A stretch of DNA of 20,000 nucleotides from an uncultured virus (IMG/VR IMGVR_UViG_3300044731_002104) (lineage: Duplodnaviria; Heunggongvirae; Uroviricota; Caudoviricetes), in IMG/VR virus record IMGVR_UViG_3300044731_002104; one strand, 5' to 3'. Shown in pieces: positions 1 through 14,044 of the stretch; the first letter of the stretch is position 1, and every line of letters starts with the position of its first letter. Both the position numbers and the translations under genes were made by a program. Under the pieces are notes generated by a model that was not told the origin of the DNA, made no database searches, and worked only from the letters and a program-made list of their open reading frames with translations.

Positions 1-2
1 CC

Positions 3-1370
3 ATCCTTGGCAAACTGCAGCCGCCCGATGACGTGCAGGACTTTGTGGTGCTGCGCCGCACGACCGATCTGCTGCTGAGTTGGAGCGCCAACACGGATGC
101 CGATCTGGCAGGGTACGAGGTGAGGGTGGGCGCGGGCTGGGATGCGGGAACTCTGGTTGGGCAGACCGCTGGTACCCAGCTCGTCCATGACCAAAGTGAA
201 TCAGGTCGGTACAACTACTTCATCCGGGCCTTTGACACCTCTGGCAAGTACAGCCAGCATGTCGCCACCTTCGAGTTGCTCCTGCTGGCACCAGCCGCAG
301 TGCGGCAGTTTGATGTGGTCCAGTCGGCCAACCGGCTGGAGTTTCGTTGGCTGCCCAATCCTGAGCCGGAGGTGGTGGCCTATGAGCTGCGAGAAGGCAC
401 GGCGTGGGACACTTCGATCTTCATTGCCGAGGTCAAGTCCAGCAGCTTCACTTTGCCTTCAGGCTTTGACGGTGAGCGTAATTTCTGGATCAAGGCAATC
501 GCCTCGCCAGGCATCTACTCGGACGAGGCCACCTTCGTCTCGACGGTGGTGGCCCAGCCCCAGAACGCCAACCTGCTGGTCACCATCGATGCACAGGCCA
601 CCCGGTTTCCAGGGGTGAAGCATTTCGCATCGGTCGAGTCGGTCAACAGCCTGGATGTGCTGCGCATGGACAGTGGCGTTGCGCAGTCCGAGTACCTGTT
701 CGAGGTGAATCTGCCCACCAGCTACCGGGCGCAAAACACCCTGTTGGCCAGCATCGGGGCCACACTGGATGATCGAGAAACCTGGTCGACAGCGAACTAT
801 GTCTGGAGCAGCAATGCTGCCAAACGGCAATGGAACTATGACGGCGCGCTCAAAAGCATCGAAGCGAGGTTTCAGATGGCGCGCGAAGATGCATTGCAGG
901 CCGGAGAGCTCTACGGCTGGCGCCTCAATGGTGCGCTGGCAGGGTACGGCAGTCCTGCCAGTGGGGAGGCCGTGGGCGTCAGCTATGGCGACGGGCGGTA
1001 CGGCAGTGGGGTACTCATCAAGGACACGACCCGGGTTTCCTGGGGTGTGAGCATCCCCGGGGTGTTCCATGTGAGCTTTTGGTTCATCCCGAATCAGATC
1101 ACCACCTCGGTCATCTGGACAGCATCTGGTGCAGGGGTGAGCCTGCTTGTGGGCTTCGATGCGGCGGCAGGCAGCTTCTTTCTGGAAGACCACCTGTTCA
1201 ACCGAATCGTCGTGCCATACCCCGTGAGCGTCAGCGACCGGATTTGCGTTGGTGTATGTCAGACGGCCGCTGAACGCAGGCTCTTTGTCGGAAAGATGGG
1301 CGGCGATGTGCAAAGCGCAAGCAGTCCTTTGCAACCCACTGCCGGATACACGGTCCTCAAGCTGTATTGA
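3..1370 (+). CDS. Phage tail tip / host-specificity (J-like) protein, C-terminal part with FN3-like repeats and a C-terminal LamG/ConA-like domain; 5'-partial
   Basis: Frame is open from the window start (ILGKLQPPDDVQDF...). Two FN3-like units (LLLSWSANTDADLAGYEVRVG..WD and LEFRWLPNPEPEVVAYELREG..WD). C-terminal GRYGSG...VSFW pattern resembles LamG-like folds. Lies upstream of tail-fibre and lysis genes. Confidence 0.75.
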   Translation: MLGKLQPPDDVQDFVVLRRTTDLLLSWSANTDADLAGYEVRVGAGWDAGTLVGQTAGTQLVHDQSESGRYNYFIRAFDTSGKYSQHVATFELLLLAPAAVRQFDVVQSANRLEFRWLPNPEPEVVAYELREGTAWDTSIFIAEVKSSSFTLPSGFDGERNFWIKAIASPGIYSDEATFVSTVVAQPQNANLLVTIDAQATRFPGVKHFASVESVNSLDVLRMDSGVAQSEYLFEVNLPTSYRAQNTLLASIGATLDDRETWSTANYVWSSNAAKRQWNYDGALKSIEARFQMAREDALQAGELYGWRLNGALAGYGSPASGEAVGVSYGDGRYGSGVLIKDTTRVSWGVSIPGVFHVSFWFIPNQITTSVIWTASGAGVSLLVGFDAAAGSFFLEDHLFNRIVVPYPVSVSDRICVGVCQTAAERRLFVGKMGGDVQSASSPLQPTAGYTVLKLY

Positions 1371-1393
1371 ACGTAAACCCAGAACCCCAACCT

Positions 1394-1430
1394 GGGCGTT
1401 GCATCGAATGGTGCAGCGCCCGTTTTGTTT
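1394..1430 (+). terminator. Rho-independent terminator-like hairpin
   Basis: GGGCGTTGCATC-GAAT-GGTGCAGCGCCC forms a 12-bp stem with two G-U pairs, followed by GTTTTGTTT, in the gap after the tail-tip gene. Confidence 0.6.
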
Positions 1431-1448
1431 GAAGAAACGGAAAACTCC

Positions 1449-1895
1449 ATGATTGAAGAAGGCATGAGCATCAAAGGCTCAATCACGCTGCTGCTGGCCA
1501 AGCCCACGGGCGAAGTCGAGGTGGTGCACAAGGACAACATCATCGTCAATGGCGGCTTTGACTTCGTGGCCGATGCCATCGGCAATTCGGCCAGCCGCCC
1601 TGGTGTTATGGGTTGGATTGCGGTGGGCACTGGCTCCACGGCCGCTGCCGCCACTCAGACGGCCCTGGTCACCGAAATCAAGCGCAATGCGGCCACGTAT
1701 GCCCACACGGCTGGCACCAAGGTGTTCACTTTCACGGCCAGCTATCCGGCGGGTGACGCCACAGGTGCGCTCACCGAGGCGGGCGTGTTCAATGCAGCCT
1801 CGGCTGGCGCCATGTTCGATCGGGTCGTTTTCCCGGTGGTGAACAAAGGCGTGGACGACAGCCTGACGGCTGTTTTCACCTTCACCATGAGCTGA
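1449..1895 (+). CDS. Phage tail structural protein (tail-collar fibre, DUF3751-like fold), 148 aa
   Basis: ATG 1449 is preferred over the ORF-track start, which overlaps the terminator U-tract. Motifs IAVGTG..A..TQTAL.TEI.R and LTEAGVFNAAS.G.MF.R resemble tail-collar proteins. Position is in the tail cluster. Confidence 0.6.
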   Translation: MIEEGMSIKGSITLLLAKPTGEVEVVHKDNIIVNGGFDFVADAIGNSASRPGVMGWIAVGTGSTAAAATQTALVTEIKRNAATYAHTAGTKVFTFTASYPAGDATGALTEAGVFNAASAGAMFDRVVFPVVNKGVDDSLTAVFTFTMS

Positions 1896-1908
1896 TCGGG
1901 CACCTGAT

Positions 1909-3099
1909 ATGGCCGAGACCGTCAACGTCTCCAGCTCGCCGGGGGCCAACTACACCTGGACTTCCGGCAAGTTTTCCTGGGGCAGCGCTACGGCAGGCAA
2001 GAACTGGACAACGGCCTACCCGGCGGTCTACGCCCTGACCGTGGCCACTGACCTGAGTTTTGCCGAGTTGGTTCAGAAATTGGGCATTAAGAGCAATTCC
2101 GAGAGCCTGACCTTCTCGGATAAATCCAGCCGGGCTTTGGCACTCAACAAGTACGAGAACCTGAACTTTGTCGAGACCTACACCGACCTGATTGCCTTTG
2201 TGCTGCGTTTCGTTGAGTCCCTGACGTTCACGGAAAAGTACGCTCGCACGGGCACCAAAGCCGTCTTCGAGACGTTTCAGGTGGGGGAGGGACTGGCACG
2301 GCAGTTGGTATTGCGCAAATACGAGACGCTGGCGCTGGCTGAGACCTATACGGACCTCATTGCGTTCATCCTGCGGGTATCCGAGAGCCTGAGTTTTTCC
2401 GAGAAGCCTTCCAAAGGGATGACCAAGCCACAGGCTGAAAACTTCAGGCTGAGCGATGCACTGGTCAAGTCGCAGGTCAAGCAAATCTCCGAGGCCTTCA
2501 GTCTGGCCGAGGCGCTCGGTCGAACGGTCGCGTACCGCCGTGCCATCAGCGAAGGCTTTGCCATTGGCGAGGCGATAAGGCGTGCGCAGACCTTGAAGCT
2601 CAGCGAGGCCTTTGGTCTGGCCGAGCAGTATCGGCGCCGGGCCAATGGGGTGATCAGCGACATGATCGTTGCCAACACCGAGATCACCGAGCAGGACTTC
2701 ATGGACATCCTGGAGTCTGGTCATCCACCCGGTTACACCAACTTCCGGGACTTCATCCAGGGCGACTACACCTACCAGCGTGCGCTTTTTAGGGCGATCT
2801 TGACTTCCAGCAACGCAGACCGAGGCTACATCGATGGCCTGCGGGTGACTGTGGACGTGCCCGATGTATTCGATCGAGGCACGGCGCAGGTGGTCACCGC
2901 GTCCAGTGGCGTAGCGGTCGTTTTTGTGCGGACTTTTCGGGTCTCGCCGGAGGTCACGCTGACCTTCAAGGGCGGTACCACCGTGGCCATTCCTCGAATT
3001 CTTGGAACGGTCACCACCGCAGGCTTCACCGCCGTTTTGGAAAACACCTCTGGCGCCCGCGTGACGGGAGCCATTTCTTGGGTTGCCCAGGGGTATTGA
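1909..3099 (+). CDS. Phage tail protein with internal repeats and a C-terminal beta domain (H-lectin/gp53-like), 396 aa
   Basis: Recurrent SE.(L/F).(F/L).(E/D) units and a duplicated ETYTDLIAF.LR..ESL.F.EK segment. The C-terminus V.F.R.F...PEV...T.AGF...ISWVAQGY is typical of tail-protein terminal domains. Confidence 0.6.
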   Translation: MAETVNVSSSPGANYTWTSGKFSWGSATAGKNWTTAYPAVYALTVATDLSFAELVQKLGIKSNSESLTFSDKSSRALALNKYENLNFVETYTDLIAFVLRFVESLTFTEKYARTGTKAVFETFQVGEGLARQLVLRKYETLALAETYTDLIAFILRVSESLSFSEKPSKGMTKPQAENFRLSDALVKSQVKQISEAFSLAEALGRTVAYRRAISEGFAIGEAIRRAQTLKLSEAFGLAEQYRRRANGVISDMIVANTEITEQDFMDILESGHPPGYTNFRDFIQGDYTYQRALFRAILTSSNADRGYIDGLRVTVDVPDVFDRGTAQVVTASSGVAVVFVRTFRVSPEVTLTFKGGTTVAIPRILGTVTTAGFTAVLENTSGARVTGAISWVAQGY

Positions 3100-3110
3100 A
3101 AGGGTACTGA

Positions 3111-4121
3111 ATGCAAAACTACACCGAAATCCCGTCCAGCACGACGCTCTCGGACTCGCTGTCGCAGATCCTGAACAACGACAAGACGGCGCTCTCGCTC
3201 TCCAGCGGAACGGCGTTTCCGACTGTGAATCTGCAGCAGGGTATGCCGTGTTTCAGGACTGATGAGCAAAAGCTCTACATCCTCACCGTGGTCAGTCCCG
3301 TCACGTGGAAGATGGTCATCGACCTCTCGGCCACAGTGGGCAAAGTGGCCAATGCGGATCTGCTGGATGGCATCGACTCCACCGGCTTTGCACTGAGTGG
3401 GCACAACCACGATGCCGCATATGCAGCGCTGGGCCACAACCACAACGCGGCATACCTGGGCATCACGGCCAAGGCAGCGGACGCTGACAAGCTCGATGGC
3501 TATGACTCCACGGCCTTTGTGCGCTCAGTCAATGGCAACGCACCGGATGCCTCTGGTAATGCCACCGTACCGATCGATTTGTCCAGTCGATTGGCCAAGG
3601 CCGGTGACACGATGACAGGCCATCTGTACATGGGTACTGGCGCAGTGATTTACTCGTCTCAGTCTGGTGCGGCGGACAACGCTCGCAACACTGGCTATCG
3701 CATGAACGATGGACAGGACATTGGCGAGATGGGGCGCAGCAACCAGTATTACGACGATCTGGCTGCTAACTGCAATGGCATCTTGCCGACCGGCAACTGC
3801 GCAGGCAATACGTACTGGAAACCCTCCAATACCAGCTGGTGGACCTGGGGCCTGGGGTTCAACTACTGCGCCAACTCGGCCCAATACGACGGTGCGGGGG
3901 GAACGACCTACGCCTATAACGCCGTGCCCAGCACAGGCTACAACTACGACGGTTACTACCTGGCCCAAGACGAGATTGGTGGTGGCGAGTACCACCGCTG
4001 GTACCGAGCCTGCAATTGCAACTGCAACTGTGGCAGCTACACCAACTGCAACTGCGGCAACACCGCCTTCAATTGCCGAACAAACTGCAATTGCAACTGT
4101 GCCTGCTGCGGTTGCTGCTGA
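3111..4121 (+). CDS. Phage tail fibre protein with a Cys/Asn-rich C-terminal tail, 336 aa
   Basis: Fibre shaft motifs: NADLLDGIDSTGF and DADKLDGYDSTAF repeats, two GHNH (HxH) motifs, VRSVNG.APDASGN, KAGDTMTG.L. Ends CNCNCNCGSYTNCNCGNTAFNCRTNCNCNCACCGCC. Confidence 0.8.
   Translation: MQNYTEIPSSTTLSDSLSQILNNDKTALSLSSGTAFPTVNLQQGMPCFRTDEQKLYILTVVSPVTWKMVIDLSATVGKVANADLLDGIDSTGFALSGHNHDAAYAALGHNHNAAYLGITAKAADADKLDGYDSTAFVRSVNGNAPDASGNATVPIDLSSRLAKAGDTMTGHLYMGTGAVIYSSQSGAADNARNTGYRMNDGQDIGEMGRSNQYYDDLAANCNGILPTGNCAGNTYWKPSNTSWWTWGLGFNYCANSAQYDGAGGTTYAYNAVPSTGYNYDGYYLAQDEIGGGEYHRWYRACNCNCNCGSYTNCNCGNTAFNCRTNCNCNCACCGCC
4011..4118 (+). repeat. Degenerate AAYTGY hexamer repeats encoding (Asn-Cys)n
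   Basis: tgc aat tgc aac tgc aac tgt ... aac tgc aac tgc ... aat tgc ... aac tgc aat tgc aac tgt gcc tgc tgc ggt tgc tgc: 9 NC dipeptides and 14 Cys in 36 codons. Confidence 0.9.
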
Positions 4122-4130
4122 AGGATCATC

Positions 4131-4937
4131 ATGAAAGTCTTTCTTGTGCGCGCGGGCAAGCTCTCGACTGCGCTGGATTACGCCATTCATCTCAAAGTGG
4201 ACCAAGCGGCTGAGCAGGTACTCATGCGCTTTGGCTTGCGACACCGTCCAGATAGTGATCAGCCTTCTGACTTCTCTGTGGAGGGGGTGACTTACCAGGT
4301 GGTTGCCGAGCAGGTGTTTGCCTATCGTGAGCTGAGAAACAACCGTGGGTGGTCCGACCGACAGTCCTTTATGACCGGTTACCGCTGGGCAGAAAAACGG
4401 CTCATCGACCCGTTGCCCTTGTATGTCTACACCCTGTCTACGCGTTTCACAGCGCCAGAAGTCTCGGGGCATGTCTGGAACGGGAACTTCCTGACCGGAT
4501 TTAACGTGCCCTTTGCGGACAGCAGCTTTGATGAATGCTTCGTGACGGTGAACCTTCATCCCACGCTTGGAGGATGTCTGGTTGAAGGTGTGGCTTCCAT
4601 GGATGTGGAGCACACCGATTACCAGTCATCTGCTCAGGTAAGGGAAATGGAGTTCCCAGACTTGCGGGTGATTGCCCCCGCAAATGTCATAGCGGGGGAT
4701 CCAGCCGAATTCACTGTGCAGATGCTCGACGGCCTGGGCAATCCCAGCAACCGTGATGCAGAGATTCACTTTGAGTCGGTCAATGGTTATCTGCCCGTCA
4801 GCCGACGCCGAACGCAGGGCGGGATGACCACAGCCACCGTCATGACCTTGGGGCTTCAAGCTGGCGACACCGTCCGATTGAAAGCGGGCTTCAAGTTCTA
4901 CCCCGGCTGCGCCGATGCTCAGGTGGTCCTTTCATGA
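4131..4937 (+). CDS. Hypothetical protein with a C-terminal Ig-like beta-sandwich, 268 aa; possible fibre accessory or chaperone
   Basis: AAGGA RBS directly after the fibre stop. The C-terminal ~90 aa (PANVIAGDPAEFTVQMLD...GDTVRLKAGF) has an Ig-like strand pattern. Stop overlaps the next ATG (ATGA). Confidence 0.6.
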   Translation: MKVFLVRAGKLSTALDYAIHLKVDQAAEQVLMRFGLRHRPDSDQPSDFSVEGVTYQVVAEQVFAYRELRNNRGWSDRQSFMTGYRWAEKRLIDPLPLYVYTLSTRFTAPEVSGHVWNGNFLTGFNVPFADSSFDECFVTVNLHPTLGGCLVEGVASMDVEHTDYQSSAQVREMEFPDLRVIAPANVIAGDPAEFTVQMLDGLGNPSNRDAEIHFESVNGYLPVSRRRTQGGMTTATVMTLGLQAGDTVRLKAGFKFYPGCADAQVVLS

Positions 4938-5533
4938 TTCGCGAACTGTTTTCTGCTCGGGTCTACCAAGGACAACTGAGTTTTGAGGATGGCTTGCGTG
5001 ATCAGATGCTCAAAAGGGCAATGGATTTACATCAGCGGCTCAATCGAGATGGGCAGCCCTGGGCACGCAAAAGCCGTCAGTCCCTGATCGATCATGAAAG
5101 CTGCTGTGACGTTTTCAGACCCCTGGTAAACCAGGTTCGTGAAGTCATTGGGCACGCCTACCAGTGTGAACCCGTGTGGCAATCCGCCCGAGAGGTCATC
5201 ACCCAACCTGGTCAGTTCATTCCGCTGCATGCCGAAGACACCGATCTCTCGGCGGTGTATTGGATTGACGGAAATGCTCGGCCAGATCCTTCTCGCCAGG
5301 ACTACTCCGGCGCTTTTGTGCTGGTCAATCCCAGCGGTGCTTACGGCAGCCGCAAATTGCCCTGGGAAGGCTGGCGCTCGGAAATCATCCATCCGTACCC
5401 CGGCCTGCTGGTGATTTTCCCGAGCTACCTGGCGCACCATTCCCACCCCTACAACGGTACCCGGCCGAGTGTGGAAGTCCATTTTGAGTTCCGGGTTCAG
5501 GCATTGGAGGGACAAGCCCATGCAAATCGTTGA
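4934..5533 (+). CDS. Putative 2OG-Fe(II) oxygenase (TIGR02466-like), 199 aa
   Basis: LHAED..LSAVYWID, SGAFVLVNP and P.PGLLVIFPSYLAH..HP...R.S give the double-stranded beta-helix pattern with H-x-E...H ligands and R-x-S. ATGA-coupled to the upstream gene. Confidence 0.8.
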   Translation: MIRELFSARVYQGQLSFEDGLRDQMLKRAMDLHQRLNRDGQPWARKSRQSLIDHESCCDVFRPLVNQVREVIGHAYQCEPVWQSAREVITQPGQFIPLHAEDTDLSAVYWIDGNARPDPSRQDYSGAFVLVNPSGAYGSRKLPWEGWRSEIIHPYPGLLVIFPSYLAHHSHPYNGTRPSVEVHFEFRVQALEGQAHANR

Positions 5534-6098
5534 CGGTTTGATTGAGCCCGAGTTGACCGCTGAATGCCGCCAGTGGCTGTTGAGCCAGAACCTTGTGTTT
5601 GGCTGGAAAGCGCATGCCAAGGCCCCTGGGGTGTTTTGGCACCGAAATTTTGTGCTGCCAGGAAAGCACAACCACCACTATGACGCAGGTGCATGGCAGC
5701 CAGAACATACTTTTGATGCGTTTGTGGCCCAGGGGGGACCACTGGTCCGAGTGGCCCTTCAGGTCAAAGAGCAGTTCTTTCCCAACGCAGAGATCACGCG
5801 CCTGTGGGTCAATGTGCAAGCGTTCGGAGATGAGGCTTCGCTCCACAGGGACTTCCCAACTGAGTTTCAGGACACGGCAAGATCCGTGATCTGGTATCCG
5901 GTAGCCGAGTGGAGTGCGGATTGGGGAGGGGATTTGGTGATGTTGGACGATCTGGGTGAAATTCAGGCGGCAGTCATGGTCAAACCCAATCGGATGGTGC
6001 AGATCAATGGCTGCATGCGCCATGCTGCCCGCCCGATCTCCCGTTATTGCAACGCCTTGCGTATCGCGGTGGCGTTTGGTTCAGAGGTGGCACCATGA
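5520..6098 (+). CDS. 2OG-Fe(II) oxygenase (prolyl-hydroxylase-like), 192 aa
   Basis: GGAGG at 5506-5510 precedes ATG 5520. Motifs LHRD (HxD), W..DWGG.L, KPNRMV, distal H (MRHAARP) and 2OG-binding R (LRIAVAF). Confidence 0.85.
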   Translation: MQIVDGLIEPELTAECRQWLLSQNLVFGWKAHAKAPGVFWHRNFVLPGKHNHHYDAGAWQPEHTFDAFVAQGGPLVRVALQVKEQFFPNAEITRLWVNVQAFGDEASLHRDFPTEFQDTARSVIWYPVAEWSADWGGDLVMLDDLGEIQAAVMVKPNRMVQINGCMRHAARPISRYCNALRIAVAFGSEVAP

Positions 6099-6778
6099 TT
6101 GAATACCTCTGGCCAACGCCAGTGCTCAAGGACACGGCGCCTTGGACTCCATCTGAAATGGATGAACTTCGGCGCTACACGGTCGAAAGATTTCATGATC
6201 ATCAGACCCATCCACCCGTGCACGGCTTGCCTGATGTGGATGTCCGGCTGAGGGTCCAGCTCAATCTGTTTCATGCCCATCATGAGGCTCATGCACCGGC
6301 AGTTTGGCATCCATGGAAGCTCTGGGTGGAGAGTACTTACCGCAACTACCTGCTCGAAGCACACGGGGTGCGCAATGCACAGGATCTAAAAATCGAAGCT
6401 CGTTGCATCCCCGTGCATTACCAGCCAGGTATGCGGGCTCAGCCGCACTACCACCACACCTGTGACCATGTCCTGTGTCTGTACCTGGACTGCGGGCAAG
6501 GCCGAAGTCCACCGGACCAACGCAGCTGGACCGTCGGTGACGGTGAACTTATCTTGCAGGACCCCCGTCCGATGGCGGGGTTTCCATTTTGGGAGAAGGT
6601 TCGCTACATCGAAACCTTTCCCGGTCTGGTGGTACTGCATCCATCGCGCATCTGGCATGAAACCAACCCCTTCAATGCCCAGGGTGAGCGAACCCTTCTG
6701 GTGGTGACCCTTCGGGTCGCCTCTCACAACTACAGCGATCTGTACACCGAGCTCAGAGGAGGGGCGTCGTGTCTTTGA
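6095..6778 (+). CDS. Putative 2OG-Fe(II) oxygenase (TIGR02466-like), 227 aa
   Basis: GAGGTGG RBS and ATGA overlap at 6095. Motifs LWPTPV, PHYHH, LYLD, GELILQDPR, PGLVVLHPSRIWHETNP...R. Confidence 0.8.
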   Translation: MIEYLWPTPVLKDTAPWTPSEMDELRRYTVERFHDHQTHPPVHGLPDVDVRLRVQLNLFHAHHEAHAPAVWHPWKLWVESTYRNYLLEAHGVRNAQDLKIEARCIPVHYQPGMRAQPHYHHTCDHVLCLYLDCGQGRSPPDQRSWTVGDGELILQDPRPMAGFPFWEKVRYIETFPGLVVLHPSRIWHETNPFNAQGERTLLVVTLRVASHNYSDLYTELRGGASCL

Positions 6779-6978
6779 ATTCACATACCCGTCCAGGTTT
6801 CGAGGTGGATGTGGTCCGTGTGGACGACAGCAACCTGCGCATGACTGTGTTGGTCACCAATCCCGACGGCAAAGCTTCTGGCCGTCATGTCTTCAACATT
6901 CAAACGATGCCGGGTGCTGATCCGGCACAGGTTTGCCGAGAGGCATACCCCATCGCATTCGAGGAATCATTGTCATGA
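6769..6978 (+). CDS. Small hypothetical protein, 69 aa
   Basis: Strong GAGGAGG RBS before GTG 6769. Overlaps the upstream stop by 10 nt, and its TGA overlaps the radical SAM ATG (ATGA 6975-6978). Confidence 0.7.
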   Translation: MSLNSHTRPGFEVDVVRVDDSNLRMTVLVTNPDGKASGRHVFNIQTMPGADPAQVCREAYPIAFEESLS

Positions 6979-8396
6979 AATTCACACTCACCCTCAATGG
7001 CAAAAACGAGTTTGAGCGACAGGCCGTCTACAACCCAGAAGACTCCAGTCTGGTCTGGAAAGACAGTGGGGAGCCTTTGCCATTGCCACAGGCATTTGCT
7101 CGCCAGGAGGGCATGCAGTGGCAGCCTTTTTGGCATTTGCATCACCCCTCCAATCCGGCCGGAAAATCAAGGGCCATTCGCCACCTCAAGCTGCAGCTGG
7201 GGCTCAAATGCAATTACGCCTGCCAATACTGCTCACAGGCACACCAGCCTCATGACCTTGACGGGCACCCGGACGATGTCCAGCCTTTCATGCAGCAACT
7301 CGAGGGGTGGTTTGCTGGAGGAGAGGATGGCCGAGGTGCTGGCGTCAAGATCGAGTTTTGGGGTGGAGAACCCTTTGTTTACTGGAAATTGCTCAAGCCC
7401 CTGGGTGAGGAGGTCAAACGTCGCTATCCCAATGCTCAGTTGTCGATCGTGACGAACGGATCGCTATTCGATGACGAAAAACTGGCTTGGGTGGAAGCGC
7501 TGGATATCGGGATTGGCTTGTCCCATGACGGACCTGCCCAGTCATACCGTGGCCCGGATCCATTGGCTGATCCTGAAAAGCTTGTCCAGATCAAGCGCTG
7601 GGTATCCAGGCGCATGCCGCTTGATCGGATGAGCTTCAACACGGTTTTGCACCGGCACAACCAATCCCTCAAGGCGGTTCGGCAGTATTTCGCTGAAAAG
7701 CTCGATCTGCCAGTGCAGGCCATTGTGCTGGCCACCGAGGAAGTGATGCTGCCCTATGACCAAGGAGGTCTCTCGCTGACGCTGGAAGGTGCTGATCTTG
7801 ATCGATACCGCCACCAGATGTTCTGGGAACTGGTGACAGGTGCTGGCATGTCGGTGGGTACGATGCGAGACAAAGTCGACGAATTCATGCGAGCGCAGGC
7901 ACAGTCCAGGCCGCTGAACTCTTTGGGCCAAAAGTGCGGCATGGACCGTGATGACTCGATTGCCGTAGACATGAAAGGCAATGTGACGACCTGCCAGAAC
8001 ATGAGCGCCTCGACCCGTCACAGGATCGGCCACGTTGAACAATTTGACGACATAGCGCTGAATACGGCGTACCACTTCAGCACCCGAATCGAATGCCCGC
8101 GTTGTCCCGTGGTGCAACTTTGCAAAGGGGCCTGTTTGTTTCTGGAAGACGGTTACTGGCGCGCTGCCTGCGACAACTCGTTTTCGCACAACCTGGCGGT
8201 CATGGCCGCAGCGCTGTACTACCAGACGCAAGGGCTGATCCTGACCCGGATTGAGGCTGATGCTATTCGTTCGTCACGACAGAACGTGATTGACGTCATC
8301 TGTCTTGCGTTTGTGGAGTCTGGTGGAGACATGCAGACCGTGGTTCCTGTCCTGCAGCTCCGAAAAGCGTTTCCGATTGCGGTCGTTGCCGCATAG
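6975..8396 (+). CDS. Radical SAM protein with SPASM domain (peptide/protein maturase type), 473 aa
   Basis: CNYACQYC (CxxxCxxC), FWGGEP, VTNG, SHDG. SPASM cysteines KCG...GNVTTC...IG and CPRCPVVQLCKGAC...AC. GAGGA RBS before ATG 6975. Confidence 0.92.
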   Translation: MKFTLTLNGKNEFERQAVYNPEDSSLVWKDSGEPLPLPQAFARQEGMQWQPFWHLHHPSNPAGKSRAIRHLKLQLGLKCNYACQYCSQAHQPHDLDGHPDDVQPFMQQLEGWFAGGEDGRGAGVKIEFWGGEPFVYWKLLKPLGEEVKRRYPNAQLSIVTNGSLFDDEKLAWVEALDIGIGLSHDGPAQSYRGPDPLADPEKLVQIKRWVSRRMPLDRMSFNTVLHRHNQSLKAVRQYFAEKLDLPVQAIVLATEEVMLPYDQGGLSLTLEGADLDRYRHQMFWELVTGAGMSVGTMRDKVDEFMRAQAQSRPLNSLGQKCGMDRDDSIAVDMKGNVTTCQNMSASTRHRIGHVEQFDDIALNTAYHFSTRIECPRCPVVQLCKGACLFLEDGYWRAACDNSFSHNLAVMAAALYYQTQGLILTRIEADAIRSSRQNVIDVICLAFVESGGDMQTVVPVLQLRKAFPIAVVAA

Positions 8397-8442
8397 ATCT
8401 GCTACGAAGCCTTTCATTTCATTCTTTGTTCATTTTTTATCG

Positions 8443-8475
8443 GCCGCCATGGTTTTCCCTGGCGGCTTTTCTTTT
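8443..8475 (+). terminator. Rho-independent terminator-like hairpin
   Basis: GCCGCCA-tggttttccc-TGGCGGC followed by TTTTCTTTT, between the radical SAM gene and the holin. Confidence 0.7.
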
Positions 8476-8485
8476 GGAGTTACGA

Positions 8486-8869
8486 ATGCCAGAACCGACA
8501 AGCAGTGGGGTCGCCGGAGCGGCGGTCGCCTATAAAGCATTGGGAGGTTCCGCAGCTGCTGCAGCCAGTGGCGCCACCTTGGCAGCTGTGGTGGTCATGT
8601 TGATGACGCCGCCTCGCAACAAACGCGAGTGGGCTGTTGGGCTGATCAGCACCGTGGTGTCGAGCATCGGCGGTGGTGCCATCACCGTCGAACACTTTGG
8701 ACTGCATCACTGGGCTTTTTCAACCATGGGGCTTTGCGCCTTGGGTGGGTTGATCTTTGCGTGTGGACTGCCTGGGTGGGCGATGGTGCGATGGACGTTT
8801 GCTTTCATCGATAAGCGCCGTGACGATTCCATCGACCAGGTGGCCAAGGATGTGAAGGAGCTGCTGTGA
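8486..8869 (+). CDS. Holin-like membrane protein, 127 aa
   Basis: GGAG RBS and ATG 8486 (MPEPTSSG). About three hydrophobic segments and a charged C-terminus. Overlaps the endolysin start (GTGA). Confidence 0.7.
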   Translation: MPEPTSSGVAGAAVAYKALGGSAAAAASGATLAAVVVMLMTPPRNKREWAVGLISTVVSSIGGGAITVEHFGLHHWAFSTMGLCALGGLIFACGLPGWAMVRWTFAFIDKRRDDSIDQVAKDVKELL

Positions 8870-9330
8870 GACCTTCAGAGTTCATCATGCGGCTGTCAAA
8901 GCCAGCGATGGAGTCCCAGCGAAAGTCAGGGGTTCCTGCCAGCATCACGATCGCTCAGGCGGCACTTGAGTCCGCCTGGGGTGAATCAGGCCTTGCAAAA
9001 GCTGGGAACAACCTCTTTGGTATCAAGGCCGATAGCCTGTGGCAGGGTGAAACGCTGACCTTAAACACACGCGAGTTCATCAGAGGGCAATGGCTTGTTA
9101 TTCCAGCCAAATGGCGAAAGTACAGCAGTTGGCAGGCCAGCATTGATGATCATGCCGCTTTTCTCAAAGGCAATCCACGCTATCAGCGCTGTTTCATGTG
9201 TCAGACCACTGAGGATTTTGCTCGTGCGCTGCTCAAGGCAGGGTATGCGACCGATCCTTCCTATACCGAAAAGCTGCTCGGATTAATTTTCCAACACAAG
9301 CTCCAGGCTTTGGATCAGGAATCGAAATGA
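8866..9330 (+). CDS. Endolysin, GH73 / FlgJ-type glucosaminidase-muramidase, 154 aa
   Basis: IAQAALESAWG (catalytic Glu), NNLFGIKA and GYATDP.Y; located between the holin and Rz. Confidence 0.9.
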   Translation: MRPSEFIMRLSKPAMESQRKSGVPASITIAQAALESAWGESGLAKAGNNLFGIKADSLWQGETLTLNTREFIRGQWLVIPAKWRKYSSWQASIDDHAAFLKGNPRYQRCFMCQTTEDFARALLKAGYATDPSYTEKLLGLIFQHKLQALDQESK

Positions 9331-9836
9331 ACTGGCTCACTCGTCTATTGATTTCCAACTGGACCCTGGTCATCGTCCCCATTGTGATGCTTGGCGTCTG
9401 GCTCAATGGTGTGTGGGTGGGGGAGGGGCGTACTCAACGGGCGTGGGATGCCGAACGGCATCAGGTAGCGCTTGTTCAAGCACGGTCTGAACAAAAGTCG
9501 GCAGACATTAAACGCTCACAGGAGCAAATCAACCATGAAATCTCAAATGAGTTCAAGCGAAAATCTGCGCGCTTGGCTGCCAATTGGCAGTCTGGTCGTC
9601 CTGTCGGGGTGTGCAGCAACCCCCCAGATGGTGCCGAGCATTTGCCCACCGTTTCCGCAACTTCCACCAACGTTGCTGAAGCCGCCACCGACCCTTTACC
9701 TTCTGCCTCCGCAGATGAGAGACGGCTGACCTGTGACAAGCTCTATGAGGATTCAGCACAGACTACGTTGATGTTGGTTGAAATTCAGAAGTGGTACGTC
9801 GAACATTCAAAGTTGCTCTTGACTGTAGCTAGGTAA
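9327..9836 (+). CDS. Rz: Rz-like inner-membrane spanin, 169 aa
   Basis: N-terminal TM segment followed by a helical/coiled-coil region. ATGA-coupled to the endolysin. Contains a nested lipoprotein ORF. Confidence 0.75.
   Translation: MNWLTRLLISNWTLVIVPIVMLGVWLNGVWVGEGRTQRAWDAERHQVALVQARSEQKSADIKRSQEQINHEISNEFKRKSARLAANWQSGRPVGVCSNPPDGAEHLPTVSATSTNVAEAATDPLPSASADERRLTCDKLYEDSAQTTLMLVEIQKWYVEHSKLLLTVAR
9535..9729 (+). CDS. Rz1: Rz1-like outer-membrane lipoprotein spanin nested in Rz (start 9535 or 9547)
   Basis: Lies in the +1 frame inside Rz. Lipobox LVVLSGC followed by a Pro-rich mature part (CPPFPQLPPTLLKPPPTLYLLPPQ), the lambda Rz/Rz1 layout. Confidence 0.8.
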   Translation: MKSQMSSSENLRAWLPIGSLVVLSGCAATPQMVPSICPPFPQLPPTLLKPPPTLYLLPPQMRDG

Positions 9837-10950
9837 TTGCTGAAGTTCTCCGAAGCCAAAACTCAGATTTTGGCCAGCGTGCTTGGTCTTGATACCAGCT
9901 GGCCCGGTTGTTCAAATACGTCTGCCAAATGTTTGCCAGTGCGTTGCTGTATTCATCGATACAAGGCTGAAAATGATCCGTGCTGAGCGCATCATGAATC
10001 GATGTTGATGCAGCCAGACCTGTGTACAGCGCATTGAATATGCCTTGGGATGAGAGCGGATCAAAACACATGGCCGCGTCTCCGGTGGCCAGCCAGCGGT
10101 GTCCGGCGTATTGAGGCAGCGTGGCGCTGTTGGCTGAGCAAAAGCCGTGTTTGGCGGCTATGTCAGAAAAGTCTGTTGTCAATATTGTTTGCGCCAGGTC
10201 TGGCAGCTGCTGTGCACGCCTTAGCAACGCGTTGGGCTTGTGTGCATCTTTGGCAGAAGGCTGATCTGCATCGGTATAGAAGGCCAGCAACCTTTGTTGA
10301 TTGGGAAGAACCGACGTATACCACCAGCCATCTCTTTCGGCATGGATTTCACTTTCCTGCTCTGCGTTGGAGAGGTGACGGCCAATCATCCAGCCACAGG
10401 CAAGCTTGTCTTTGGCTTGCGGTATCAACCCCATTTGTTTGGCGAAGAATGATTTTCGGCCAGTGGCATCAACCAACCAATTGGCTTTGATGTGAATGCG
10501 CTGTCCATCGACTTCGGTTTCCACAAGCCATGATTGATCGGTGGGGTCCAGATTTCCAAAACTCAATCCCGAACACCTCAGAATTCCAGCGCCTCGTCGA
10601 TGAGCTTGCTGCAGCAGCCACTCATCAAATCGAGCGCGGTCCAGATGCCAGCCATCGCCGTCCAGGTTGCGAACCGAGTCATTGAAGTAAGGTTCAGCAC
10701 TGCCCCATAGTGACTTGCTCAAGCGATGGGGTTGATGGTCTTGTTCAAGAAACGAAGACCACAGCCCCATGTCTTTAAGTAAACGTGATGCAGCAGCCGG
10801 CAATGACTCCCCAACTGCTTGTGACGTGACACTCTGCTGCGTGACGATCAAAACCTTGTGAAAAGTTGCCAGATTAAGCGCCACCGTACTGCCTGCGGGG
10901 CCAGCCCCCACCACCAAAACATCGACAAAGAGCTGGTCCCGCACAGGCAC
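9829..10950 (-). CDS. LodB/GoxB-family FAD-dependent oxidoreductase (CTQ cofactor biogenesis), 373 aa
   Basis: DVLVVGAGPAG Rossmann motif, LDRARFD, VDATGR and GDAA..FDPLSSQG. Starts directly after the stop of the LodA-like gene. Confidence 0.85.
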   Translation of the reverse strand: MPVRDQLFVDVLVVGAGPAGSTVALNLATFHKVLIVTQQSVTSQAVGESLPAAASRLLKDMGLWSSFLEQDHQPHRLSKSLWGSAEPYFNDSVRNLDGDGWHLDRARFDEWLLQQAHRRGAGILRCSGLSFGNLDPTDQSWLVETEVDGQRIHIKANWLVDATGRKSFFAKQMGLIPQAKDKLACGWMIGRHLSNAEQESEIHAERDGWWYTSVLPNQQRLLAFYTDADQPSAKDAHKPNALLRRAQQLPDLAQTILTTDFSDIAAKHGFCSANSATLPQYAGHRWLATGDAAMCFDPLSSQGIFNALYTGLAASTSIHDALSTDHFQPCIDEYSNALANIWQTYLNNRASWYQDQARWPKSEFWLRRTSAIT

Positions 10951-13893: not shown

Positions 13894-14044
13894 ACATGAA
13901 CCTTTTGGATATGGGTACATGCATTCGAACGCAATCTCTCTGAAAAAACACCTACCAAATCCAATAGGTCTGCATTTAATTCAAAATATTTATCGCGATC
14001 TTCTGAAAAAGTTGAATACGCATCCAGCGTTTCATAAGACCCAT

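What the first reader, a model, noticed from the sequence alone, without database searches (positions are those of the whole stretch)
3111..8396. Prophage tail fibre with an (Asn-Cys)n tip linked to a radical SAM/SPASM enzyme and three 2OG-Fe(II) oxygenases: candidate RiPP-like virion modification system
Seen: a fibre gene ending in 14 Cys/36 aa is followed by six genes (Ig-like unknown, three 2OG oxygenases, 69-aa ORF, rSAM-SPASM). These overlap one another (ATGA at 4934, 6095 and 6975; 14-nt and 10-nt overlaps at 5520 and 6769) and sit inside the late operon before the holin. No separate short Cys-rich precursor is present. Established: rSAM-SPASM enzymes form thioether or C-C crosslinks on Cys-rich peptides (sacti-/ranthipeptides), and 2OG oxygenases hydroxylate Asn, Asp, Pro and other residues in proteins. 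Inference: the substrate is the structural fibre itself, so the phage builds a crosslinked and hydroxylated receptor-binding tip. I cannot verify whether this has been described before.
Basis: partly seen in the sequence, partly recalled or inferred. Interest (0 to 1): 0.93.

Follow-up and report, generated by a model that had tools for sequence, protein, structure and literature searches.

The report
Enzyme-modified cysteine tail on phage fibre
A freshwater phage ends its host-recognition fibre in a run of asparagine-cysteine repeats and carries, right behind it, a radical-SAM enzyme and oxygenases that almost certainly modify that tail chemically, which would be peptide-antibiotic-style chemistry used to build a virus particle.

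Summary
The fibre gene (3111-4121) ends with 14 Cys in 36 residues and is followed by six overlapping genes ending in a radical SAM/SPASM enzyme.

The link between tail and enzyme holds in both directions:
- Of 136 rSAM-homologue loci with at least 3 kb upstream, 119 have an upstream same-strand ORF ending in (X-Cys)n. The background is 18 of 7354 other ORFs.
- Ten more loci have the repeat directly followed by a Hint-like self-cleaving motif, so cleavage would leave the repeat at the C-terminus.
- Of 44 loci found through a C-terminal NC-tail DNA pattern, 37 carry the rSAM.

Related phages share the fibre's first 172 residues (91% identical) but carry a different tip, accessory genes and rSAM (37-43% identical). 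The whole unit is therefore swapped together. Accessory enzymes track the tail's last residues.

Not shown: the chemistry (thioether cross-links are inferred), the hydroxylation target, and any effect on adsorption. The fibre fold failed.

None of my ten literature searches found a paper describing this. This scan had already noted the same kind of cassette five times, in T4-like phages of other genomes. New here are a siphovirus-type full-length fibre, the Hint variants and the enzyme-tail covariation.

The parts
3..1370 (+). C-terminal part of a large tail protein (similar to the end of the central tail fibre J of phage JWF); open at the window start
   Evidence: tblastn 35% identity to the JWF gp026 region; no Pfam or PHROG hit
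1425..1895 (+). small tail-fibre-module protein
   Evidence: phrog_5417 at 3.4e-23 and phrog_4176 'tail fiber protein' at 5.2e-14; 90-100% identical in related phages that carry other tips
1909..3099 (+). 396-aa tail-module protein of unknown function
   Evidence: conserved upstream of the fibre in 54 of 136 loci; no family hit
3111..3626 (+). fibre, residues 1-172: conserved anchor and shaft with two HxH motifs, ending at the GDTMTGxL junction
   Evidence: 157 of 172 residues identical to the fibres of L138 and L143, with similarity ending at residue 172; 37% identity to JWF gp028 residues 1-174
3627..4010 (+). fibre, residues 173-300: exchangeable tip domain
   Evidence: conserved block in alignment A3, including invariant C221, C230 and the DEIGGGEY motif; the AF2 monomer gave no usable fold
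4011..4121 (+). fibre, residues 301-336 plus stop: the (Asn-Cys)n tail, proposed substrate
   Evidence: 14 Cys in 36 aa; an (XC)n tail is present in 119 of 136 homologous loci, plus 10 Hint-fused variants
4131..4937 (+). P0002: two-domain protein with an unknown N-terminal domain and a C-terminal bacterial Ig-like domain; family F1
   Evidence: AF2 pLDDT 92.7; Z 10-12 to invasin, intimin and GH2 Ig-like domains over residues 175-268; 77 family members among the ORFs lying between tail and rSAM in 119 loci
4934..5533 (+). 2OG-Fe(II) oxygenase 1 (family F0)
   Evidence: PF13759 27.7 bits, cut-off 27; phrog_81 at 1.5e-14; invariant H99 and H168 in alignment A4
5520..6098 (+). 2OG-Fe(II) oxygenase 2 (family F3, prolyl-hydroxylase-like PF13640)
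   Evidence: PF13640 26.1 bits, cut-off 27; present in 16 loci, all with CC[GD] at the tail end
6095..6778 (+). 2OG-Fe(II) oxygenase 3 (family F0)
   Evidence: PF13759 26.7 bits; phrog_81 at 3.8e-12
6769..6978 (+). 69-aa protein of unknown function (family F2)
   Evidence: conserved directly upstream of the rSAM in 21 loci; no family hit
6975..8396 (+). radical SAM/SPASM enzyme, 473 aa from the ATG at 6975
   Evidence: PF04055 and TIGR04085 above their cut-offs; invariant Cx3Cx2C and seven-Cys SPASM motif; phrog_1802 at 5.6e-53
8486..8869 (+). holin-like membrane protein (the ORF is open from 8426; the likely start is the Met at 8486)
   Evidence: hydrophobic segments in the translation; phrog_1024 at 1.5e-42; its position before the endolysin. 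The holin function is inferred
8866..9330 (+). endolysin (glucosaminidase)
   Evidence: PF01832 at 2.2e-38; endolysin PHROGs
9327..9836 (+). spanin-like protein with an N-terminal membrane anchor
   Evidence: translation; conserved after the endolysin in 27 loci. The function is inferred

Best explanation
The gene at 3111-4121 encodes a side tail fibre of a siphovirus-type temperate phage of freshwater Comamonadaceae-like bacteria. Residues 1-172 anchor it to the tail. Residues 173-300 form an exchangeable tip domain. The last 36 residues form an (Asn-Cys)n tail.

I propose that this tail is the substrate of the radical SAM/SPASM enzyme encoded 2.85 kb downstream (6975-8396). I also propose that the three 2OG-Fe(II) oxygenases in between decorate the same tail.

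Proposed course of events:
1. Late in infection the fibre, P0002, the oxygenases, the 69-aa protein and the rSAM are made from one run of overlapping genes.
2. The rSAM abstracts hydrogen atoms with its SAM cluster, aided by two auxiliary clusters. It joins Cys sulfurs to carbons of neighbouring residues as thioethers, as in QhpD, PapB, NxxcB or CrpC.
3. The oxygenases add hydroxyl groups. The PF13640-type enzyme acts at the terminal Cys-Cys-Gly end.
4. The result is a rigid, redox-insensitive, protease-resistant end on the host-recognition tip.

Tip, accessory genes and rSAM are exchanged between phages as one cassette.

Shown here: the anatomy, the two-way genomic linkage, the swapping as a unit, and the covariation of enzymes with tail ends. 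Inferred: that the rSAM acts on the tail, the thioether chemistry, the hydroxylation, co-transcription, and any role in adsorption.
For: 1. rSAM to tail. Of 136 rSAM-homologue loci with at least 3 kb upstream, 119 have a same-strand ORF within 6 kb upstream ending in (XC)>=3. Among the other ORFs of at least 60 aa in those loci, 18 of 7354 do. Of the 17 loci without such an ORF, 10 carry the repeat internally, directly followed by a Hint-like motif (C-F/V-P-A-G-T). Self-cleavage there would leave the repeat C-terminal. Three more have weaker or internal versions and 4 have none. The loci are not dereplicated; they contain 101 distinct 45-aa tails.

2. Tail to rSAM. A DNA pattern for NCNCNCNC returned 78 new viral loci. 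In 44 of them the pattern is an in-frame C-terminal tail, and 37 of those 44 hold an rSAM family member (26 of the 30 with at least 4.5 kb downstream). Of the 34 loci where the pattern is not such a tail, 2 hold the rSAM.

3. Swapped as one unit. Twelve loci keep the fibre's N-terminal part at 91-93% identity and the upstream gene at 90-98%, and 10 of the 12 keep the holin at 80-95% (in the other two no holin match was found). Their rSAMs are only 37-43% identical and their accessory genes differ. In the two fibres aligned, similarity stops at residue 172 and the tip differs.

4. Within this phage lineage. Of the 120 best cluster representatives sharing the N-terminal anchor, 116 end in (XC)>=3. 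The 4 exceptions are 217-279 aa long.

5. Accessory enzymes track the tail end. The PF13640 oxygenase family occurs in 16 loci, and all 16 tails contain CC[GD]. Only 2 of the 103 other loci do. A second rSAM family occurs in 14 loci, and all 14 tails end in Asp plus 0-4 non-Cys residues. Only 1 of the 105 other loci does.

6. Enzyme type. The Cx3Cx2C and seven-Cys SPASM motifs are invariant. The best NCBIfam matches are peptide- or protein-modifying maturases: nif11-type, PapB, QhpD, HxsB and CcpM. The best solved relatives are RiPP maturases and anSME.

7. Precedent. Dieter et al. 2026 (PMC13692751, abstract read) report that the rSAM/SPASM enzyme CrpC installs ranthionine cross-links on a Cys-rich protein.

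8. The same arrangement occurs in isolated phages. JWF has a fibre with NCNCDCNCNCSC plus Hint, then the rSAM. RSP15 has a fibre ending NCQCGN, a P0002 homologue, and the rSAM.
Against: - There is no biochemical or proteomic evidence of any modification.
- The motifs used for the enzyme-tail covariation were defined after looking at the data, and related loci share ancestry. The Fisher values are therefore descriptive only.
- The rSAM reaches no curated cut-off of any characterised maturase family, so sequence does not fix the chemistry. Its best solved relative by sequence, 8vpo, appears in two papers in the listing, one of them on cyclopropyl synthases, which make C-C bonds rather than thioethers.
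- About 14% of the non-Cys repeat positions are Ala, which does not fit a strictly Asn- or Asp-directed beta-thioether.
- rSAM similarity does not track tail similarity strictly. L073 and L078 have tails close to this one, yet their rSAMs are about 40% identical.
- Four loci with enough upstream sequence show no tail, and 7 of 44 tail loci show no rSAM, 3 of them at contig ends.
- Neither Pfam nor PHROGs names the fibre. Its identity rests on position, N-terminal homology and motifs.
Confidence: 0.68

Rival explanations
1. Same substrate, different chemistry. The rSAM acts on the tail but does not make thioethers. Alternatives include oxidising Cys to formylglycine-like aldehydes as anSME does, forming C-C bonds, or removing or rearranging Cys.
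For: anSME is the only characterised relative that aligns over nearly the full length, both in the PDB (profile positions 81-393, E 1.6e-10) and in NCBIfam (TIGR03942, residues 90-401). In the listing, one of the two papers that name the top solved hit 8vpo concerns cyclopropyl synthases. No family cut-off is reached.
Against: The tail contains no sulfatase-type motif (direct reading; the motif itself is recalled). By E-value the strongest profile matches are maturases acting on Cys-rich peptides or proteins: PapB, QhpD and CcpM. The invariant feature of the tails is Cys at every second position, the pattern expected for multiple sulfur-to-carbon links.
Confidence: 0.2
2. The tail is a metal-thiolate or disulfide motif, metallothionein-like or a Cys counterpart of the His-x-His iron needle of T4 gp37. 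It needs no enzymatic cross-linking. The rSAM and oxygenases serve another target and merely travel with the fibre.
For: C-x-C repeats are typical metal-binding motifs (recalled). The fibre shaft also has HxH motifs, GHNHDAAYAALGHNHNAAY. Nothing run here shows catalysis on the tail.
Against: Two-way co-occurrence, swapping of tip and enzymes as one unit and covariation of accessory enzymes with the last tail residues are not expected from hitch-hiking. No other Cys-rich candidate substrate lies in the window. Metal binding after modification is not excluded.
Confidence: 0.07
3. The cassette makes a diffusible RiPP-type product. The tail is cut from the fibre-like carrier after modification and released, for example as a bacteriocin or signal, and is not kept on the virion.
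For: Some loci have small tandem tail-bearing ORFs of 92-126 aa, three in a row in L140, L153 and L162, which look like precursor arrays. The enzyme set is typical of RiPP clusters.
Against: Among the ORFs between tail and rSAM, none of those scanned against Pfam matched a protease or a transporter (representatives of families F0, F1, F4-F7, F12 and F26). In the window the tail is fused to a full fibre whose N-terminal 172 residues are shared with other fibres. In the Hint variants, cleavage would leave the tail on the fibre side. The cassette sits between tail and lysis genes.
Confidence: 0.04

Closest known systems
QhpD acting on QhpC, the gamma subunit of quinohaemoprotein amine dehydrogenase
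   Same: An rSAM/SPASM enzyme that installs several Cys thioether cross-links (to Asp or Glu) on a protein that stays part of a larger assembly, in aerobic proteobacteria (recalled). The NCBIfam model TIGR03906 matches the window's enzyme at E 4.7e-14.
   Different: The score of 51.9 bits is far below the family cut-off of 453, so this is not a member. The substrate here is a virion fibre with a strict X-Cys repeat. No amine dehydrogenase genes are present.
CrpC/CrpA of Methanococcus voltae (Dieter et al. 2026, PMC13692751; abstract read)
   Same: An rSAM/SPASM enzyme with three clusters that puts ranthionine cross-links on a Cys-rich protein, not on a short peptide. It was found through gene adjacency.
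   Different: It is archaeal and cellular, and its biological role is unknown. The related model TIGR04463 scores 22.9 bits against a cut-off of 525. The paper's main text does not contain the word 'phage'.
Ranthipeptide and sactipeptide maturases: PapB (freyrasin), CteB, and NxxcB, which makes an Asn-Cys beta-thioether
   Same: SPASM enzymes that process repeated Cys-containing motifs. The PapB model matches at E 1.1e-15 and the CteB structure 5wgg at 8.3e-14. An Asn acceptor is known from NxxcB (recalled).
   Different: Those substrates are leader-bearing peptides that are cleaved and exported. Here there is no leader, protease or exporter, and the substrate stays attached to a 336-aa structural protein. 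All curated cut-offs are missed.
Anaerobic sulfatase-maturating enzyme (anSME)
   Same: It modifies Cys on a folded-protein substrate. It is the only characterised relative that aligns over almost the whole enzyme.
   Different: 34.6 bits against a cut-off of 349. There is no sulfatase and no sulfatase motif nearby.
Self-cleaving C-terminal domains of phage fibres and tailspikes, and the His-x-His iron needle of T4 gp37 (all recalled)
   Same: Phage fibre tips are known to be finished by unusual means: autoproteolytic chaperone domains, or metal ions along the trimer axis. The Hint-fused variants resemble the first, and the X-Cys periodicity resembles the second.
   Different: None of these uses dedicated radical or oxygenase enzymes encoded next to the fibre.
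Tandem dioxygenase clusters of cyanophages (Iyer et al. 2010, PMC2938197; passages read) and rSAM cassettes in the host-recognition cluster of pelagimyophages (Zaragoza-Solas et al. 2020, PMC7029224; passages read)
   Same: Oxygenase and rSAM genes were noted inside or beside phage tail-fibre regions.
   Different: The first paper read them as secondary-metabolite genes and the second left them uninterpreted. In the passages I read, neither links them to a Cys-repeat tail on the fibre.

Membership tests
Radical SAM superfamily | Cx3Cx2C motif binding the SAM cluster; Pfam PF04055 above its gathering score | tested here: met
   C79, C83 and C86 are invariant in 18 aligned sequences; PF04055 30.3 bits against 29.5
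SPASM subgroup of radical SAM enzymes | C-terminal seven-Cys motif (Cx9-15Gx4C ... Cx2Cx5Cx3C ... C) for two auxiliary clusters | tested here: met
   C321, G335, C340, C374, C377, C383, C387 and C399 are invariant; TIGR04085 33.5 bits against 27. The motif wording is recalled
Characterised maturase equivalogs (PapB NF047865, QhpD TIGR03906, anSME TIGR03942, SCIFF TIGR03974, CcpM TIGR04068, TIGR04463) | Score at or above the curated NCBIfam cut-off | tested here: not met
   Scores of 57.7/340, 51.9/453, 34.6/349, 31.8/425, 42.4/500 and 22.9/525 bits
RiPP system in the strict sense | Short precursor with a leader or follower peptide, removal by a protease, and release or export of the product | tested here: not met
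   The substrate candidate is the C-terminus of a 336-aa fibre. None of the ORFs scanned between tail and rSAM matched a protease or exporter. No separate Cys-rich small ORF exists
RiPP system in the strict sense | RiPP recognition element (PqqD-like domain) in the maturase or a partner | tested here: inconclusive
   No RRE family appeared for the rSAM N-terminus, P0002 or P0006. The N-terminal domain of P0002 was not searched on its own
2OG-Fe(II) oxygenase superfamily | Pfam family above its gathering score; conserved iron-binding residues | tested here: inconclusive
   P0003 scores 27.7 against 27 (met). P0005 scores 26.7 against 27 and P0004 26.1 against 27 (just under). phrog_81 matches at 1.5e-14 and 3.8e-12. 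Two invariant His in 12 aligned family members; the acidic ligand is not invariant in that alignment
Phage side tail fibre | Homology to known fibres, position in the tail module, modular N-terminal anchor with an exchangeable tip | tested here: met
   37% identity over residues 1-174 to JWF gp028, which lies just after the central fibre J. The same anchor carries different tips. However, Pfam and PHROGs give no hit and the fold failed
Hint/intein-like self-cleaving domain (variants in other loci only, not in the window) | Pfam Hint family above its gathering score, starting at a Cys directly after the repeat | tested here: inconclusive
   JWF gp028: PF05203 47.5 bits against 32.1 (met). L044, L121 and L051 are below the cut-offs. 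L032 and L128 have no hit at E<=0.01 although the CFPAGT or CVPAGT motif is visible

The most novel reading that the evidence does not exclude
Many tailed phages, including siphovirus-type prophages like this one, JWF, the Ackermannviridae phage RSP15 and, from earlier notes of this scan, T4-like phages, finish their receptor-binding tip enzymatically. A dedicated radical SAM/SPASM enzyme would turn a C-terminal (X-Cys)n tail into a ladder of covalent sulfur-carbon cross-links, possibly between the three chains of the fibre. Variable oxygenases, a second rSAM or desaturase-like enzymes would then add to the tail end. Tip and enzymes would be exchanged as one host-range cassette. This would be the first radical-enzyme post-translational modification of a virion structural protein, and a new layer of host-range determination.
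Probability: 0.45. Interest if true: 0.9.

Novelty: new variant of a known kind. Interest (0 to 1): 0.8.

Why it matters
Host recognition by phage fibres is normally explained by the folded protein alone. If the tip is cross-linked and oxidised by enzymes encoded beside it, several things follow:
- Predicting or engineering host range from fibre sequence alone would miss a required partner.
- Fibre tips expressed without the enzymes may be inactive.
- Radical-SAM peptide chemistry, known from antibiotics and a few cellular proteins, would extend to virus particles.

The system is widespread. The scans found 272 confirmed relatives of the rSAM in one-genome-per-species bacterial contigs and at least 413 in viral contigs. 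It also occurs in isolated phages that could be tested.

Tried and rejected
- **Fibre fold.** The AF2 monomer on a 22-sequence alignment gave pLDDT 36.8, so no structural statement about the tip or tail is possible.
- **Complex prediction.** The job with rSAM + P0002 + fibre residues 160-336 gave no verdict (score 0.00, controls not run), so nothing can be concluded either way.
- **P0002 N-terminal domain.** Foldseek and VIA-align matched only the Ig-like domain. The protein-atlas search gave no usable hit.
- **Family searches.** Pfam, PHROGs and NCBIfam gave nothing for the fibre, P0002 or P0006.
- **Promoters and terminators.** The scan of 2800-10200 found no promoter-like site, and terminator-like sites were at the level of the shuffles. 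It neither supports nor contradicts a single transcript.
- **RNA evidence.**
  - Contigs from four freshwater metatranscriptome libraries (X19-X22), 90-99% alike, lie over 26-27 of 30 bins of window 1-10000.
  - Contigs from RNA libraries do not prove transcription, and DNA carry-over is possible.
  - The last two bins (9353-10000) have no cover in any of the four runs; a part without cover is no finding.
- **Post-hoc tail motifs.** The motifs tried for families F4 and F7 were arbitrary, and I do not rely on them.
- **rSAM-tail co-divergence.** Strict co-divergence is rejected: L073 and L078 combine a tail close to this one with an rSAM only about 40% identical.
- **Literature.** The library lacks most subscription journals, and the original JWF genome paper was not found in it.

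Full report
**Observation**

The window carries a run of same-strand genes:

| Coordinates | Product |
|---|---|
| 3111-4121 | 336-aa protein ending RACNCNCNCGSYTNCNCGNTAFNCRTNCNCNCACCGCC |
| 4131-4937 | 268-aa protein (P0002) |
| 4934-5533 | small enzyme (oxygenase 1) |
| 5520-6098 | small enzyme (oxygenase 2) |
| 6095-6778 | small enzyme (oxygenase 3) |
| 6769-6978 | 69-aa ORF |
| 6975-8396 | 473-aa enzyme |

The last 36 residues of the first protein hold 14 Cys.

Family assignments:
- The three small enzymes match 2OG-Fe(II) oxygenase families at or just under Pfam's cut-offs. Two of them match PHROG phrog_81 clearly.
- The last enzyme is a radical SAM protein with a SPASM domain.
- In an alignment of 18 homologues at 43-88% identity, the Cx3Cx2C motif and all seven SPASM cysteines are invariant.

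The only other Cys-rich frame in the window is the antisense shadow of the tail, so there is no separate precursor peptide. Downstream lie a holin-like membrane protein, a glucosaminidase endolysin and a spanin-like protein. Upstream are tail-module genes. The window belongs to a 38-kb viral record. Its closest relatives are in Hylemonella and Limnohabitans assemblies, by the record titles.

**Is it a fibre?**

Pfam, PHROGs and NCBIfam give no hit for the first protein, and its AF2 monomer model failed (pLDDT 36.8). Three lines of evidence still support a fibre:
- Residues 1-174 are 37% identical to gp028 of Achromobacter phage JWF, which follows the central tail fibre J.
- The protein has HxH motifs and the GDTMTGxL motif common in fibres (that these motifs are typical of fibres is recalled).
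- It shows the modular pattern of fibres. Against the fibres of L138 and L143, 157 of 172 N-terminal residues are identical and similarity then stops.

**Linkage of tail and rSAM**

The rSAM family is large: 2218 proteins at E<=0.001 among the candidates scored, none with a specific name. I fetched the best 80 of 272 confirmed relatives from bacterial genome contigs and the best 80 of at least 413 from viral contigs. I added the two annotated phage loci, JWF and RSP15.

From rSAM to tail:
- Of the 136 loci with at least 3 kb upstream of the rSAM, 119 have a same-strand ORF within 6 kb upstream whose last 30 residues hold at least three consecutive X-Cys units.
- Among all other ORFs of at least 60 aa in these loci, 18 of 7354 do.
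- Of the 17 loci without such an ORF, 10 (JWF among them) have the repeat inside the fibre gene, directly followed by C-F/V/S-P/V-x-G-T, the start of a Hint-type self-cleaving domain.
- Pfam puts JWF gp028 above the cut-off for PF05203. Three others fall below cut-offs and two are not detected. If these domains cleave at their first Cys, the repeat again becomes the C-terminus.
- Three further loci have weak or internal versions. RSP15 ends NCQCGN. Four have none.

From tail to rSAM:
- A DNA pattern for NCNCNCNC gave 78 further viral loci.
- In 44 of them the pattern is an in-frame C-terminal tail, and 37 of those hold an rSAM family member. Three of the seven exceptions end within 750 bases of the tail.
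- Of the 34 loci where the pattern is something else, 2 hold the rSAM.

Some contigs occur in both samples and the loci are not dereplicated. There are 101 distinct 45-aa tails. In their repeats the non-Cys position is Asn in 70%, Ala in 14% and Asp in 11%.

**The unit of exchange**

- Twelve loci keep this phage's backbone. The fibre N-terminus is 91-93% identical and the gene at 1425-1895 is 90-98% identical. The holin is 80-95% identical in the 10 of the 12 where a match was found. Their rSAMs are only 37-43% identical and their accessory genes differ. The tips of the two fibres aligned are unrelated to this one beyond residue 172.
- The swapped block therefore runs from fibre residue 173 to the end of the rSAM.
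- Of the 120 best cluster representatives that share the N-terminal anchor, 116 end in an X-Cys tail of some class. The other four are short, 217-279 aa.
- The cassette also sits in other backbones: before the NlpC and J-like genes in L063, L073 and L087, in an Ackermannviridae phage, and, by earlier notes of this scan, in T4-like phages.

**Accessory genes**

Between tail and rSAM, 264 ORFs in 119 loci fall into a few families:

| Family | ORFs | What it is |
|---|---|---|
| F0 | 80 | PF13759-type oxygenase, in 70 loci |
| F1 | 77 | P0002-like |
| F2 | 21 | the 69-aa protein |
| F3 | 16 | PF13640-type oxygenase |
| F4 | 16 | unknown |
| F5 | 14 | a second, shorter rSAM |
| F6, F7 | 8 each | unknown |
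| F12 | 2 (one locus) | fatty-acid-desaturase-like genes |

Only the tail and the SPASM enzyme are constant.

Two families track the tail's last residues:
- All 16 loci with F3, the window's middle oxygenase, have CC[GD] near the end. Only 2 of the other 103 do, and both have disturbed ORFs where F3 would lie.
- All 14 loci with F5 have tails ending in Asp plus 0-4 non-Cys residues. Only 1 of the other 105 does.

I defined these motifs after seeing the data, and related loci are not independent, so the counts are descriptive. They are nonetheless what one expects if these enzymes act on the tail end.

P0002 folds with high confidence (pLDDT 92.7). It has a C-terminal bacterial Ig-like domain (Z 10-12) and an N-terminal domain for which I found no match. 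Its role is open: fibre chaperone, adaptor or tip component.

**Mechanism**

The enzyme belongs to the SPASM group, whose characterised members modify peptides or proteins.
- Its best profile matches are nif11-type, PapB, QhpD, HxsB and CcpM maturases, all far below their family cut-offs.
- Its best solved relatives are 8vpo, CteB and anSME. In the listing, one of the two papers naming 8vpo is on cyclopropyl synthases.
- Established knowledge (recalled) is that QhpD, PapB, NxxcB and sactipeptide synthases join Cys sulfur to a carbon of Asp, Glu, Asn or other residues.
- Dieter et al. 2026 report such links on a whole Cys-rich protein (PMC13692751, abstract).

I therefore commit to multiple thioether links along the tail as the most likely chemistry, at about 45%. 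A larger share, about 80%, goes to the weaker claim that the tail is the rSAM's substrate. The Ala positions and the anSME-like full-length alignment keep other Cys chemistries open. Hydroxylation by the oxygenases, and its site, is inferred only.

**Comparison and novelty**

The system works like QhpD/QhpC or CrpC/CrpA, with protein-level cross-linking by an rSAM/SPASM enzyme. It is not a member of any of those families. It is also not a RiPP in the strict sense, having no leader, no protease and no exporter.

Ten literature searches found no paper that links a radical SAM enzyme to a phage fibre tail. Three papers touch related points:
- Iyer et al. 2010 noted cyanophage dioxygenase arrays and read them as metabolite genes (passages).
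- Zaragoza-Solas et al. 2020 noted rSAM cassettes in the host-recognition cluster of pelagimyophages and did not interpret them (passages).
- A 2025 cyanophage paper called such an rSAM an antibiotic-synthesis gene (passages).

Earlier agents of this scan reached the same reading for five windows of T4-like phages. I re-tested the recurrence independently here. This window adds the full-length siphovirus-type fibre, the Hint-fused variants, the breakpoint at the GDTMTG junction, the reverse co-occurrence test and the enzyme-tail covariation.

**Verdict**

This is a real and widespread cassette with strong genomic support, and its chemistry is untested. I class it as a new variant of a known kind and score its interest at 0.8.

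Noticed in passing
window 9829-13920 (- strand): A LodA-like L-lysine epsilon-oxidase (989 aa; LodA_N at 2.1e-85, LodA_C at 3.2e-40) with its FAD-dependent partner (373 aa), directly after the lysis genes. Both also match PHROG families (phrog_30760, phrog_29573), so such pairs recur in phage records. This may be a moron or host flank.
   Followed up: no
window 17560-19887 (- strand): A 775-aa AAA_13/SMC_N/AAA_21-type ATPase (PF13166 at 3.8e-25), possibly a defence or abortive-infection gene. G+C dips to 0.48-0.51 between about 13.5 and 16 kb.
   Followed up: no
window 3390-3460 (fibre residues about 94-116): Two His-x-His motifs (GHNHDAAYAALGHNHNAAY) in the fibre shaft. They recall the metal-binding HxH repeats of other phage fibres (recalled).
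   Followed up: no
L140 4381-5305; L153 4462-5393; L162 4479-5391: Three tandem small ORFs (92-115 aa), each ending in NCNCNCNC or NCNCACNC, upstream of a P0002-like gene, an oxygenase and the rSAM. Here the tail sits on small proteins instead of a full fibre.
   Followed up: partly
L118 3371-4881: Two adjacent fatty-acid-desaturase-like genes (PF00487 at 1.7e-15 and 1.3e-14) inside a tail-rSAM cassette, where other loci have 2OG oxygenases.
   Followed up: no
L135 476-6748: A 2090-aa protein with an internal NCNCACDC followed by eight Gly, just upstream of an rSAM homologue. This may be another way of exposing the repeat.
   Followed up: no
window 4068-4122: Contigs from freshwater RNA-library runs break off here and continue with different tail sequences (loose ends). 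Close relatives in nature appear to differ in repeat number and tail end, as do L130, L008 and L040.
   Followed up: partly
L008, L015, L040 (tails ending CCGW): Some close relatives end the tail in Trp instead of Cys-Cys. Earlier notes of this scan linked a terminal Trp to a halogenase in T4-like phages. I did not look for one here.
   Followed up: no
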